Of a stretch of 64,000 bases of DNA, positions 1-3,000 are shown one piece after another; position 1 is the first letter of the stretch; each line of letters begins with the position of its first letter. Source of the DNA: Escherichia coli (lineage in GTDB: Bacteria > Pseudomonadota > Gammaproteobacteria > Enterobacterales > Enterobacteriaceae); assembly GCF_044324875.1 (NCBI RefSeq), contig NZ_CP172185.1, one strand, 5' to 3'. Made by a program: the position numbers.

Positions 1-3000
1 TGAGTTTTGTATGGATAATAAAATCTTTTTAAATCATAAGGGGAAGAAGTCGTATAAAGAAAGGAATTTATTTCTTTTCTCAAAAGGTGACAAGATAACA
101 ATTGAAGATAATGTTATTGCTGAAGAATATTCAACAATGCCTGTAAAAAATTTCTCCAGTGTCGGCGCTTTTTCATTCCCGACCTGTCATTTTACAGGGA
201 ATATACATATAGGTCGATTTTGTAGTATTGCATCAAATGTAAAAATAATGGGTGGAAATCATCCTTTGAATCGTTTTACTACTCACATGATGACTTATAA
301 CGGTGAATTTGATAAGTTTGCTATGAGTGAGTTTGAACGTAGCTGGACATTGAAACCATTCATTACCAAACCTGAAAATCCGATTATAGGAAATGATGTC
401 TGGATAGGAAATGATGTTGTATTGAAAGGTGGCATCGCAATAGGTGATGGTGCTGTTATTGCTGCCAATTCCGTTGTTACAAAAGATGTGCCCCCATATG
501 CCATAGTTGCAGGAGTTCCTGCAAAAATAATCAGATTTAGATTTGATTCAAATATTATTGATGAATTGTTGAGAATAAAGTGGTGGAATTATAATTACTC
601 AGATCTTCCGGATAATAACAAATGTGATGATATAAATTATTTTGTTGAAGAGATGAATCGATTGATATCAAATGGAAATATTCAAGAGATGGACTATAAA
701 AAATTCAATCTTTCTGAGATATTTAGAGACCTATAATTATCTGTTCTGCATGATAAATGGGCAAGATAACCAGTGCGGGGTTTGCAATTTCAATGGGACA
801 GCGTCATCAAGGAGATTGCAATCATCCTGCCATGCATATACTTTTCGCCATCTTTTTATATTTACTTTATTCCCTGAAAGTATAAAGCATTTATAGACTC
901 CAGCGCGTCTAAAGTATTGATGATAGAAAAATGTGAAAACAAGGTTCCCTTTGAATCAGTAAGCTGTCTGTATAGACGACAGGGGGGGGATGTTTTCTAC
1001 TTATTTCAATGTAGATGTCAGCAAAAAGAAGTAAATATTAAGGATAATGTTGTAAGCCTGGAGAGTATGAGATGATCTTGCGTACTGTCAGAGCACTGAT
1101 TTCTCTGACAGTACGTGCTGCGTGCAAAATCACTACATCAAATAAACCAGCCAAATCTCATAGAGATAAGAGTAAACAAACCAACAGCAGCAAAGACATT
1201 TATCAGTACTACAGTTCTACTGGAAACATTCATTTTTGCCACCTTTTATCATTGCCCCTATGTGTATAGTACGGGTTAAGAAAATCCGCAATAATGCTCA
1301 TTCTGAAGATGGATAAGGGCAAGTTGCTGTTTGATGATTTTTTCTCAAACCGGTTAAAAAACTTGATGTGCGTCAAAAAATGACGCATATTTGCGCGCGT
1401 TTTATTCATCTGGCTGGACGCCCGTACATGTCTCTCTATCAACACATGCTTGTTTTTTATGCGGTTATGGCAGTAATCGCATTTCTTATCACCTGGTTTC
1501 TTTCTCACGATAAGAAACGCATCCGTTTCTTAAGCGCCTTTCTGGTGGGGGCAACATGGCCGATGAGTTTCCCGGTGGCGCTGTTGTTTTCACTGTTTTA
1601 AATCTTACTCACTGGCTTGACGGCACCACGCAGACTTATATCATTTGGATGAATCGATAAATTTCACAAGTGGCTAAGGAGAAAGTATGTCGCATCTGGA
1701 TGAAGTCATCGCGCGCGTGGATGCCGCGATTGAAGAGAGCGTCATTGCCCATATGAACGAATTATTAATCGCCCTGAGCGATGACGCGGAGTTAAGTCGG
1801 GAAGATCGCTATACCCAGCAGCAGCGTCTGCGCACAGCGATCGCCCATCACGGTCGCAAACATAAAGAAGATATGGAAGCGCGCCACGAACAGTTAACCA
1901 AAGGTGGCACCATCCTCTGATTAAAATGTGCGCCTGGCCACCAGCCAGGCACCAACCACAAGTAAAATTGCGCCACAAATTGGGCCGATCAACGCCCGTA
2001 GTGGTACGCCATGGCTGCGGAAGATATCCAGCACCAGACCGCCAATCAGCTGGCTGGCGACCAGTACCGCAATAGTTGTCGCCGCTCCCACATTCTGATA
2101 TCCGCTGATACTGGCGAAGACAAAAAACGATCCCAGCAAGCCAGGTATAAGTGTCCACCAGCGCACGTTGGACACCAGTTCGCCAAACCCCGCCATACCT
2201 TGTTTAAACCATAAAATAGAAACAAAGAGCACAATCCCCACCAGTGAGTTCAGCAACATGGCGATGAGAATGGTAGAGGAGGTCTGGGTGATGCGCACCA
2301 TCAGCGTGTTCTGGACTACCAGACCAATTCCGGCGGCAATCAAAAAAGCAAGGGTGAGCGACTGATTCATCCAATCGCGTCCGGTTCAGTGCGCTCGTCG
2401 AGTTGCAACTGCATAAATGTCAGATCCAGCCAACGACCAAATTTAGTGCCTACCTGCGGCATTTGTGCGGTGACGACAAATCCCAGCGTCTGGTGGAGAT
2501 GCAGCGAGGCCTGGTTTTGCGATTCGATCCCGGCGACCATGACATGCTTCCCGCAATCCCGCGCTTCATCAATCAATCGGCTTAACAATTTACGCCCCAG
2601 ACCTTTGCCCTGATGATCGGGATGGACATAAACCGAATGTTCCACGGTATGGCGAAAACCATCGAAACTACGCCAGTCGCCAAACGAGGCATATCCCGTC
2701 ACTACGCCATCTTCTTCGCTCACCAGCACCGGATAACCTGCTATGGTCCGCGCTTCAAACCAGGCAATGCGGTTATCAGCATCCACCGTTTGGTCATTCC
2801 AGATAGCCGCCGTATACAACACGGCGTGGTTATAAATTTCCGCAATGGCAGCACAGTCGGCTTTGCGGGCAAAACGGATGGACATGTTTGGCCTCGATTA
2901 AATAATGATGATGACGTTATCAATACTATCGAAAACAGCCCGAAGCAACGGATTCCTCGATGAAATTATTGCGTGTTGCAGAGGGGATGTGACGGCTGCA

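What the first reader, a model, noticed from the sequence alone, without database searches (positions are those of the whole stretch)
1..1080. Low-GC patch encoding a Vat/CatB-like hexapeptide acetyltransferase next to yncL
The first kilobase is AT-rich and encodes a 241-aa protein with the hallmark motifs of streptogramin A / chloramphenicol acetyltransferases. I do not recall such a gene at this position in K-12, and its composition suggests horizontal acquisition. It could be a cryptic antibiotic-modifying enzyme, but substrate cannot be read from sequence.
Basis: partly seen in the sequence, partly recalled or inferred. Interest (0 to 1): 0.5.

Follow-up and report, generated by a model that had tools for sequence, protein, structure and literature searches.

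The report
Orphan sugar-type acetyltransferase gene island
The AT-rich first kilobase holds most of a real, conserved acetyltransferase gene that about a fifth of E. coli strains carry between patD and yncL. It shares a fold with antibiotic-acetylating enzymes, but its nearest informative relatives modify cell-surface sugars, so it is an ordinary accessory gene and not a hidden resistance gene.

Summary
The ORF at window 11..736 is cut by the window edge. The real gene is 269 aa and starts 74 nt upstream of the window (RefSeq WP_000867994.1, "CatB-related O-acetyltransferase").

It lies in a 1337-bp island with 32.5% GC, against about 50% in the flanks. The island sits between the patD stop codon and yncL and is bounded by a 10-bp imperfect direct repeat. 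K-12 lacks it. About 1150 of 5426 complete E. coli genomes carry it and 4241 have the empty site.

The polymorphism is old. Two alleles exist, 97.4% identical in the CDS, and they are as diverged as their flanks. The gene is under purifying selection (dN/dS 0.08-0.14).

The fold and the catalytic His112 place the protein in the xenobiotic-acetyltransferase (XAT) class of left-handed beta-helix enzymes. It fails the curated Vat, CatB and ApmA score cut-offs, lacks a loop that Vat and CatB share, and has extra N- and C-terminal segments.

Its closest characterised relative by position and sequence is the C. jejuni sialate O-acetyltransferase Orf11. Relatives 51-56% identical sit in the Pectobacterium LPS-core cluster or on prophages next to tail-fibre or glycosyltransferase genes.

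Most likely it is an acetyl-CoA-dependent O-acetyltransferase acting on a sugar or glycan. The acceptor is unknown. Interest is low.

The parts
1..736 (+). 3' 736 nt of an 810-nt CDS (269 aa) for a left-handed beta-helix (hexapeptide-repeat) O-acetyltransferase. The true start codon lies 74 nt upstream of the window, and the stop codon is at 734-736. Catalytic His112 (269-aa numbering) is residue 84 of the 241-aa ORF, encoded at window 260-262.
   Evidence: ORF. The 269-aa CDS is annotated in E. coli 042 and O111:H8. Pfam Hexapep. The PDB and NCBIfam hits are all XAT-class. The AlphaFold2 model has pLDDT 93.3. His112 is invariant in a 90-sequence alignment. dN/dS is 0.08-0.14.
737..1032 (.). 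3' non-coding part of the AT-rich island (about 300 bp). No gene, RNA family, transposon end or terminator was recognised in it.
   Evidence: Only short ORFs. No Rfam match at E<=1. No terminal repeats. No similarity to the flanks of homologues in other genera. It is 94.4% identical between the two E. coli alleles.
1033..1042 (.). Right copy (AAATATTAAG) of the 10-bp imperfect direct repeat that bounds the 1337-bp island. The left copy (AAACATTAAG) contains the patD stop codon and lies 1337 bp upstream, outside the window. K-12 has a single copy.
   Evidence: K-12, 042 and window junction alignments. The same junctions occur in O111:H8.
1081..1115 (.). Perfect 13-nt inverted repeat just outside the island, shared with K-12, between the island and yncL. 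It is the only hairpin downstream of the acetyltransferase gene and is a neighbour, not part of the island.
   Evidence: Inverted repeat I4. The sequence is present in K-12.

Best explanation
The gene encodes a soluble, cytoplasmic, acetyl-CoA-dependent O-acetyltransferase of the XAT class of left-handed beta-helix enzymes. By analogy with Vat, CatB and ApmA it should work as a trimer, with active sites between subunits and His112 acting as the general base that activates an acceptor hydroxyl.

It belongs to a large sister radiation of the true Vat and CatB enzymes. Members of this radiation are about 260-270 aa, with an extra N-terminal segment of about 60 residues and a longer C-terminal helical tail. 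Where the neighbourhood is informative, these proteins acetylate sugars on surface glycans.

The most likely acceptor in E. coli is therefore a sugar hydroxyl, on an LPS or other surface-glycan intermediate or on a free sugar. Streptogramin A and chloramphenicol are unlikely acceptors.

The gene travels as a single-gene, low-GC cassette with its own promoter region, like a prophage 'moron'. It has been at the patD/yncL site in part of the species for a long time. Empty sites such as K-12's probably arose by deletion between the 10-bp repeats, or were never filled.

Shown: the fold, the conserved catalytic residue, purifying selection, the population distribution, and the contexts of relatives. 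Inferred: the trimer, the chemistry, and the class of acceptor.
For: Fold and chemistry:
- Pfam Hexapep hit.
- The PDB sequence hits are Vat, CatB and ApmA, with query His aligned to VatD His82.
- The AlphaFold2 model has pLDDT 93.3, with a central insert helix and three C-terminal helices, the canonical XAT layout described in PMC7885111.
- Foldseek probability is 1.0 to VatD, VatA and CatB.
- His112, Trp159 and the DVW motif are invariant across 90 homologues.

A clade distinct from Vat and CatB:
- blastp gives 92-103 bits to Vat and CatB over the core only (residues 95-230). It gives 140-176 bits to Campylobacter, Brochothrix and Vibrio relatives over residues 41-267.
- The neighbour-joining tree puts Vat plus CatB outside the whole radiation.
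- The full-length fold match to AlphaFold DB homologues has TM 0.8-0.89, against 0.45-0.49 to solved Vat and CatB.

Glycan links:
- C. jejuni P0127 sits exactly at the orf11 position after cst-neuB-neuC-neuA, as does the C. lari protein. Orf11 is a biochemically proven sialate O-acetyltransferase (PMC8319020, PMC3513307, PMC2174954).
- Pectobacterium P0050 (51% identity) lies inside the waa LPS-core cluster.
- Providencia P0033 (56%) is on a prophage beside a GT52 glycosyltransferase.
- Kluyvera P0037 (53%) and IMG/VR contigs L111 and L113 carry it right next to tail-fibre genes.
- Brochothrix P0078 overlaps gtfA/gtfB.
- Vibrio L032 is beside Kdo kinase, and MAG L041 is beside TagD/TarF-like genes.

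Functional constraint:
- dN/dS is 0.08 (E. coli against Citrobacter), 0.14 (Cedecea against Enterobacter Ag1) and 0.12 between the two E. coli alleles.

Cassette behaviour:
- The gene is low-GC and sits at different chromosomal sites in E. coli, Citrobacter and Cedecea.
- A 47-bp upstream stretch is conserved between E. coli and Citrobacter.
Against: - In E. coli the gene is an orphan. No glycosyltransferase, sialic-acid or polysaccharide gene is adjacent. The same holds for its closest relatives (69-80% identity) in Citrobacter and Cedecea, and for the more distant Rahnella homologue (46% identity).
- The transfer of function therefore rests on relatives that are only 38-56% identical.
- The carrier strains have many different O antigens, so any glycan acceptor would have to be a shared one, and none is known.
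- The nearest solved structures are all antibiotic-modifying enzymes.
- A crude neighbour-Pfam comparison did not separate this clade from Vat/CatB-like proteins, because the control set also sat next to glycosyltransferases.
- The oxyanion-stabilising Tyr of VatA (Tyr42) aligns ambiguously, to Phe84 or Thr70.
- No expression or biochemical data were found.
Confidence: 0.55

Rival explanations
1. It is a true xenobiotic (antibiotic) acetyltransferase, a divergent Vat/CatB-type enzyme that inactivates chloramphenicol, streptogramin A or another hydroxyl-bearing drug. This is the cryptic resistance gene the first reader proposed.
For: - The best PDB and NCBIfam hits with a known function are Vat, CatB and ApmA.
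- Foldseek's top hits are VatD, VatA and CatB8.
- The catalytic His is conserved.
- RefSeq names it 'CatB-related', and some records say 'antibiotic acetyltransferase'.
- It is a stand-alone gene with no glycan partner, as many chromosomal XAT genes are.
- ApmA shows that an XAT with an N-terminal extension can acquire a new drug substrate (PMC7885111).
Against: - Its scores are 125, 107 and 83 bits against cut-offs of 300, 350 and 550 for Vat, CatB and ApmA.
- No AMRFinderPlus or RGI call lies on it in PLSDB record NZ_CP141089.1.
- It is never on plasmids. The only near-identical 'plasmid' hit is a 4.9-Mb record that looks like a mislabelled chromosome.
- No full-length match was found in sequenced phage genomes.
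- It lacks the Vat/CatB-specific segment after the YSYY motif.
- No relative examined sits next to resistance cassettes, while many sit in glycan loci.
- From my own knowledge: E. coli is intrinsically insensitive to streptogramins, so selection for a Vat activity is hard to see.
Confidence: 0.2
2. It is a free-sugar or small-metabolite 'detoxifying' acetyltransferase in the manner of LacA or Maa. It would acetylate a non-metabolisable sugar or another small hydroxyl compound in the cytoplasm, not a surface glycan.
For: - It is an orphan gene with its own promoter and no glycan genes nearby in E. coli, Citrobacter, Cedecea, Rahnella and Photobacterium.
- It shows weaker but real similarity to galactoside and maltose O-acetyltransferases in the C-terminal coils.
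- The Citrobacter copy sits next to nucleoside phosphorylase, MFS and Tsx genes.
Against: - Similarity to LacA and Maa is confined to about 50 residues (125-176) and is far weaker than to the XAT class.
- Relatives with informative contexts point to polymer- or lipid-linked glycans.
Confidence: 0.15
3. It is a silenced or decaying xenogeneic remnant with no current function in E. coli.
For: - Very low GC (32.5%), which from my own knowledge is typical of H-NS-silenced DNA.
- Only weak promoter-like matches, no more than expected by chance.
- Lost or absent in 78% of genomes.
- Occasionally disrupted, as by an IS1 insertion in strain B19374, and truncated forms exist.
Against: - The 269-aa ORF is intact in about 1150 complete genomes and in thousands of draft assemblies.
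- dN/dS is 0.12 between the two old E. coli alleles and 0.08-0.14 between genera.
- The catalytic residues are invariant.
Confidence: 0.08

Closest known systems
Campylobacter jejuni Orf11 sialate O-acetyltransferase (LOS class A/B locus; Houliston et al. 2006, as cited in PMC8319020, PMC3513307 and PMC2174954)
   Same: - Same extended architecture: an N-terminal segment, an XAT-type beta-helix and a long C-terminal helical tail.
- 38% identity and 140 bits over residues 66-267, including the tail. The C. lari positional orthologue gives 40% and 169 bits over residues 41-267.
- Nearly identical VVTKDVPPYAIVAG(V/I)PAKII(R/K)(F/Y)RFD...LL.I.WW.Y block.
- Both fall in the same radiation outside Vat and CatB.
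   Different: - Orf11 is embedded after cst-II, neuB, neuC and neuA and acts on terminal sialic acid of LOS.
- The E. coli gene has no sialic-acid or glycosyltransferase neighbour and sits in a different sub-clade of the tree.
- At 38% identity the acceptor cannot be transferred.
Vat streptogramin A O-acetyltransferases (VatD 1khr, VatA 4hur)
   Same: - Left-handed beta-helix with a central insert and C-terminal helices.
- The catalytic His (VatD His82, VatA His87) aligns with His112.
- Shared DVWIG and PAK..RF motifs.
- Best PDB sequence hit (E 2e-29) and best Foldseek hit.
   Different: - 125 bits against the 300-bit family cut-off.
- Only the core, about residues 95-230, aligns by blastp.
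- TM-score is only 0.45-0.49 normalised to the query.
- The 13-18-residue segment that follows the YSYY motif in Vat and CatB is missing.
- About 60 extra N-terminal and about 25 extra C-terminal residues.
Type B chloramphenicol acetyltransferases (CatB2, CatB3, CatB8, PaXAT)
   Same: Same XAT fold and catalytic His. RefSeq's name for the gene derives from this resemblance.
   Different: - 107 bits against the 350-bit cut-off.
- CatB genes are integron or plasmid cassettes, whereas this gene is chromosomal at one fixed site and never on a plasmid.
- Different N- and C-termini.
Prophage-borne lysogenic-conversion acetyltransferases such as NeuO of phage CUS-3 (polysialic acid O-acetyltransferase)
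   Same: - Hexapeptide-repeat, acetyl-CoA-dependent, single-gene cargo.
- Relatives of the E. coli protein occupy the tail-fibre-adjacent cargo slot of prophages in Kluyvera, Providencia and IMG/VR contigs.
   Different: - NeuO matches only weakly and only in the C-terminal coils (3jqy, E 1.8e-10, residues 122-176). It belongs to a different branch of the superfamily.
- The E. coli island carries no phage genes.

Membership tests
XAT class of left-handed beta-helix acetyltransferases (superfamily level) | Tandem hexapeptide repeats forming a left-handed beta-helix | tested here: met
   Pfam Hexapep E 1.5e-9 and Hexapep_2 E 6e-6. AlphaFold2 model with pLDDT 93.3. Foldseek probability 1.0 to Vat, CatB and PaXAT structures.
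XAT class of left-handed beta-helix acetyltransferases (superfamily level) | Conserved catalytic histidine (VatD His82, VatA His87, ApmA His135) | tested here: met
   The query NH motif aligns with VatD N81-H82. His112 is invariant in 90 homologues. It also aligns with the His of three Vat and three CatB reference sequences.
XAT class of left-handed beta-helix acetyltransferases (superfamily level) | Insert with helices in the middle of the beta-helix, and a C-terminal region of three alpha-helices (architecture as described in PMC7885111) | tested here: met
   In the model, an insert of about residues 113-150 contains helix 128-136. The C-terminal helices are 208-217, 236-248 and 262-268.
XAT class of left-handed beta-helix acetyltransferases (superfamily level) | Homotrimer with acetyl-CoA bound between subunits | not tested
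   Only a monomer was modelled. No multimer prediction or experiment was done.
Vat family streptogramin A O-acetyltransferase (NCBIfam NF000311) | Score at or above the curated family cut-off (300 bits) | tested here: not met
   124.9 bits. Individual Vat(A-I) models score 90-113 bits against cut-offs of 400-475.
Vat family streptogramin A O-acetyltransferase (NCBIfam NF000311) | N-terminal YSYY motif followed by the 13-18-residue segment shared by Vat and CatB. I recall that this segment lines the drug pocket; I did not test that here. | tested here: not met
   The multiple alignment shows the segment absent. The motif is GAFSF in E. coli. The pairwise HMMER alignment places it differently, so the residue equivalent to VatA Tyr42 is uncertain.
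Vat family streptogramin A O-acetyltransferase (NCBIfam NF000311) | Acetylation of streptogramin A, or resistance to it | not testable with these tools
   Needs an enzyme assay or MIC measurement.
Type B chloramphenicol O-acetyltransferase (NCBIfam NF000490) | Score at or above the curated cut-off (350 bits) | tested here: not met
   107 bits. blastp to CatB2, CatB3 and a Klebsiella catB gives 92-99 bits over the core only.
ApmA aminocyclitol acetyltransferase (NCBIfam NF000084) | Score at or above the cut-off (550 bits) and a shared N-terminal domain | tested here: not met
   83.4 bits, matching only residues 42-202 of the 241-aa ORF to positions 94-257 of the model. Foldseek TM to ApmA is 0.36-0.44, no better than to Vat.
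Orf11-type sialate O-acetyltransferase (C. jejuni LOS locus) | Full-length sequence relationship to Orf11, including the C-terminal tail | tested here: inconclusive
   38% identity and 140 bits over residues 66-267, higher than to any Vat or CatB. However, it falls in a different sub-clade, and no curated threshold exists.
Orf11-type sialate O-acetyltransferase (C. jejuni LOS locus) | Genetic linkage to sialyltransferase and neuBCA genes | tested here: not met
   The E. coli neighbours are patD and yncL. Linkage is seen only in Campylobacter, and to GT52 in Providencia.
Phosphonate-metabolism hexapeptide transferase (TIGR03308) | Score at or above the cut-off (201.65 bits) and phn gene neighbourhood | tested here: not met
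   131.9 bits, the top NCBIfam hit but below the cut-off. No phn genes are nearby.

The most novel reading that the evidence does not exclude
The orphan enzyme O-acetylates a glycan shared by E. coli strains, such as the LPS core, ECA or a common O-unit sugar. That would give the roughly 20% of strains that carry it (the 042-type allele and the commoner second allele found in O111:H8) an unrecognised lineage-specific surface modification. Such a modification could alter phage adsorption or antibody recognition. In effect it would be a domesticated prophage-type seroconversion gene fixed at patD/yncL.
Probability: 0.2. Interest if true: 0.5.

Novelty: new member of a known kind. Interest (0 to 1): 0.2.

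Why it matters
The practical value is as a caution. 'CatB-related' and 'antibiotic acetyltransferase' labels on this common E. coli accessory gene should not be read as a resistance determinant.

If the glycan reading is right, it marks an unstudied surface modification that separates large E. coli lineages. Those lineages include the enteroaggregative strain 042 and O111:H8. The modification could affect phage susceptibility or serology.

The locus is also a clean example of an old presence/absence polymorphism of a single low-GC gene maintained by purifying selection.

Tried and rejected
- **Neighbour-Pfam enrichment.** I took the genes flanking 29 'E. coli/Orf11-like' homologues and 29 'Vat/CatB-like' homologues from GTDB and IMG/VR loci and scanned them as pseudo-alignments A2 and A3. 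The test did not discriminate. The control set consisted mostly of short phage or giant-virus proteins that also sit next to GT2 and methyltransferase genes. I used it only to pull out individual cases such as L032 and L041.
- **RNA families.** Rfam found nothing in window 1-1700.
- **Mobile-element signatures.** No inverted terminal repeats or IS or integrase remnants occur in the island.
- **Promoter and terminator scan.** It was no better than shuffled sequence. The only terminator-like site is the patD-proximal hairpin at the island's left end.
- **Phage families.** PHROGs matched only a family of unknown function.
- **Phage and plasmid collections.** No full-length match in phage genomes. 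The only near-identical match in the plasmid set is a 4.9-Mb record that looks like a mislabelled chromosome.
- **Literature.** Searches for the RefSeq accession and the product name found no study of this gene. The one E. coli paper that mentions a CatB-related acetyltransferase concerns a different gene in an ST131 capsule locus.
- **Vat residue lists.** The Stogios 2014 VatA paper could not be retrieved, so Vat drug-contact residues could not be checked one by one.
- **Phosphonate reading.** I rejected the TIGR03308 (phosphonate metabolism) reading because the score is below the cut-off and no phn genes are present.
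Full report
**What is in the sequence**

Window 11..736 (+) is an open reading frame of 241 codons. It lies in DNA of 31-37% GC, whereas the window beyond about 1.6 kb is 50-56% GC.

The frame is open back to the first base of the window. In E. coli 042 (NC_017626.1; window position 1 corresponds to locus L001 position 9001) the annotated CDS starts 84 nt before the ATG at window 11. That is 74 nt before the window, and the CDS encodes 269 aa: WP_000867994.1, 'CatB-related O-acetyltransferase'. The 28 extra residues include an FRW motif that is conserved in homologues from Citrobacter, Cedecea, Providencia, Rahnella and Pectobacterium. yncL lies at window 1138-1233 on the minus strand.

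**The island**

K-12 has 96 bp between the patD stop codon and yncL. Strain 042 has 1433 bp. Aligning the junctions shows a 1337-bp segment bounded by an imperfect 10-bp direct repeat:
- The left copy, AAACATTAAG, contains the patD stop codon and lies outside the window.
- The right copy, AAATATTAAG, is at window 1033-1042.
- K-12 has one copy.

The island contains 222 bp of upstream non-coding DNA, the 810-bp gene and about 300 bp of downstream non-coding DNA. It has no integrase, IS element, terminal inverted repeats or Rfam match.

**Distribution in E. coli**

Among 5426 complete E. coli genomes:
- 1150 carry at least 80% of the island-specific sequence (one search gives 1149).
- 4241 have the uninterrupted K-12-type junction.

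The empty group includes K-12, strain C, ATCC 8739, O157:H7 and an O2:K1:H4 APEC strain.

Carriers fall into two allele classes. 181 genomes are at least 99% identical to the 042 island. About 955 are at about 95.4% identity, for example O111:H8. Both classes sit at the same site with the same junctions.

Between these alleles the CDS is 97.4% identical, with 14 synonymous and 7 non-synonymous differences (dN/dS 0.12). The flanking patD and the yncL-ydcZ stretch are 95.9% and 97.4% identical. The island has therefore diverged along with its flanks. This is an old polymorphism, not a recent arrival.

The foreign origin is still visible in the composition: GC 32.5% and GC3 27.8%, against 50% in the flanks.

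**What kind of protein**

Evidence for the XAT class:
- Pfam finds hexapeptide repeats.
- The best solved relatives by sequence are VatD (E 2e-29), VatA, several type B/C chloramphenicol acetyltransferases, ApmA and PaXAT. The query NH motif aligns with VatD His82.
- An AlphaFold2 model built on 90 homologues is confident (pLDDT 93.3, pTM 0.88). It shows the XAT layout described for Vat, PaXAT and ApmA in PMC7885111: a beta-helix, a central insert with a helix, and three C-terminal helices. It also shows an additional N-terminal strand-helix segment.
- Foldseek against the PDB returns only Vat, CatB, PaXAT and ApmA structures at the top. TM-scores are only 0.45-0.49 relative to the query, because about 190 of 269 residues superpose.
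- His112, Trp159 and Asp157-Val158 are invariant in the 90-sequence alignment.

**Why it is not a Vat or a CatB**

- NCBI's curated resistance models score it at 124.9 bits (Vat, cut-off 300), 107 bits (CatB, cut-off 350) and 83.4 bits (ApmA, cut-off 550). The top hit, a phosphonate-linked family, is also below its cut-off.
- A PLSDB record that appears to be a mislabelled 4.9-Mb chromosome carries AMRFinderPlus and RGI predictions elsewhere, but none on this gene.
- blastp to three Vat and three CatB reference proteins gives 92-103 bits over the core only (residues 95-230). Proteins from Campylobacter, Brochothrix, Vibrio and others give 140-176 bits over nearly the whole length.
- A neighbour-joining tree of 205 sequences puts Vat plus CatB on one branch, outside the entire 'CatB-related' radiation. 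The E. coli protein is nested among Enterobacterales sequences.
- In the alignment, Vat and CatB share a 13-18-residue segment after their YSYY motif that this clade lacks. The clade has about 60 extra N-terminal residues and about 25 extra C-terminal residues.
- Against the AlphaFold database the full-length architecture is matched at TM 0.8-0.89 by many uncharacterised acetyltransferases.

**What the relatives do**

The only biochemically characterised member I could tie to this clade is C. jejuni Orf11. Protein P0127 (276 aa, 1560 cluster members) lies immediately after cgtA, cgtB, cst-II, neuB, neuC and neuA and before waaV and waaF. That is the orf11 position of class A/B LOS loci. C. lari has the same arrangement. 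Orf11 transfers acetyl from acetyl-CoA to O-9 of terminal sialic acid (PMC8319020, PMC3513307, PMC2174954).

Within the Enterobacterales sub-clade:
- The Pectobacterium brasiliense homologue (51% identical) sits inside the waa LPS-core cluster, between GT9, GT4, GT8 and GT2 genes and waaA-coaD-mutM.
- The Providencia rettgeri homologue (56%) is on a prophage beside a GT52 glycosyltransferase and a tail gene.
- The Kluyvera homologue (53%) follows the tail-fibre and tail-fibre-assembly genes of a P2-like prophage.
- Two IMG/VR contigs show the same tail-fibre adjacency.

Further out:
- A Brochothrix homologue overlaps gtfA/gtfB of a serine-rich-repeat glycoprotein locus.
- A marine one lies near WcbI and a glycosyltransferase.
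- A Vibrio one lies beside Kdo kinase, and a Campylobacteraceae MAG one beside TagD/TarF-like genes.

None of the contexts examined contained resistance cassettes.

The closest relatives of the E. coli protein (69-80% identity; Citrobacter, Cedecea and Enterobacter sp. Ag1) are orphans at different chromosomal sites, and so is the more distant Rahnella homologue (46% identity). The gene is markedly low-GC against its flanks in Citrobacter, Cedecea and Enterobacter sp. Ag1, less so in Rahnella (44% against 51%). A 47-bp upstream stretch is conserved between E. coli and Citrobacter. This suggests a single-gene cassette that moves with its own promoter.

**Is it functional?**

dN/dS is 0.08 (E. 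coli against Citrobacter, with synonymous sites near saturation), 0.14 (Cedecea against Enterobacter Ag1) and 0.12 between the E. coli alleles. The 042 protein sequence is seen on at least 1000 contigs. Occasional disruptions exist, such as an IS1 insertion in strain B19374. Whether and when the gene is expressed is unknown. The consensus promoter scan was no better than chance.

**Verdict**

The finding is a real, already annotated but uncharacterised accessory gene. It is best described as an acetyl-CoA-dependent O-acetyltransferase of the XAT fold class, belonging to the Orf11-containing sister radiation of Vat and CatB. Its acceptor is most probably a sugar hydroxyl. The acceptor in E. coli cannot be named, because the gene is an orphan.

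The resistance-gene reading remains possible at about 0.2 but is not supported by any test I could run. Nothing here is surprising to a specialist, so the interest score is low.

**Limits**

- The context evidence comes from relatives that are 38-56% identical.
- The tree is a distance tree without support values.
- Gene calling in the bulk survey was crude, and that survey was uninformative.
- The residue equivalent to VatA Tyr42 could not be fixed.
- No multimer or ligand modelling was done.

Noticed in passing
window 1-8000 and whole window: The window is only 97.5% identical to the best of 5426 complete E. coli genomes over its first 8 kb, and about 96.4% identical to K-12 over the aligned 50 kb. 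The acetyltransferase CDS, in contrast, is 99.3% identical to the 042 allele. The source looks like a rare or divergent Escherichia lineage, and the island is less diverged than its flanks.
   Followed up: partly
L001 8720-9990 against E. coli genomes; L195 (O111:H8) 1486-2810: The island exists in two old allele classes in E. coli: 181 genomes at 99% or more to 042, and about 955 at about 95.4%. Both are at the same site with the same junction repeats. The commoner allele is the one in O111:H8.
   Followed up: yes
window 10900-25020: Where K-12 has the rhsE/ydcD/yncI/ydcC region, this window has about 14 kb that matches type VI secretion VgrG/TssI, PAAR and M35 peptidase genes plus IS66-family and ISAs1-family elements. 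No complete E. coli genome covers more than 56% of it in one place.
   Followed up: partly
window 4101-5000 (mcbR region): This stretch is locally hyper-divergent: 93.3% identity to the nearest E. coli genomes, against about 97.5% on either side.
   Followed up: no
window 25021-36049 (pptA to narU region): This segment is only 94.3% identical to K-12, lower than the rest of the window. There are also gaps relative to K-12 at window 36049-37397, 38543-41048 and 47522-48943.
   Followed up: no
NZ_CP142915.1 (strain B19374), hit H139: An IS1A element interrupts the acetyltransferase gene in this strain, leaving two annotated fragments. This is an example of occasional inactivation.
   Followed up: no
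L001 8714-8739 (outside the window, left end of the island): A GC-rich hairpin followed by a T-run sits 10 nt after the patD stop codon, inside the island. In carrier strains the island appears to supply a terminator-like element for patD, whereas K-12 has only the 13-nt inverted repeat next to yncL.
   Followed up: no
L026/L027 6001-7167 (Brochothrix thermosphacta): The homologue here is 388 aa, with about 120 extra N-terminal residues. Its end overlaps the start of gtfA, which is followed by gtfB and a KxYKxGKxW-signal protein. This suggests O-acetylation of a serine-rich-repeat glycoprotein glycan.
   Followed up: no
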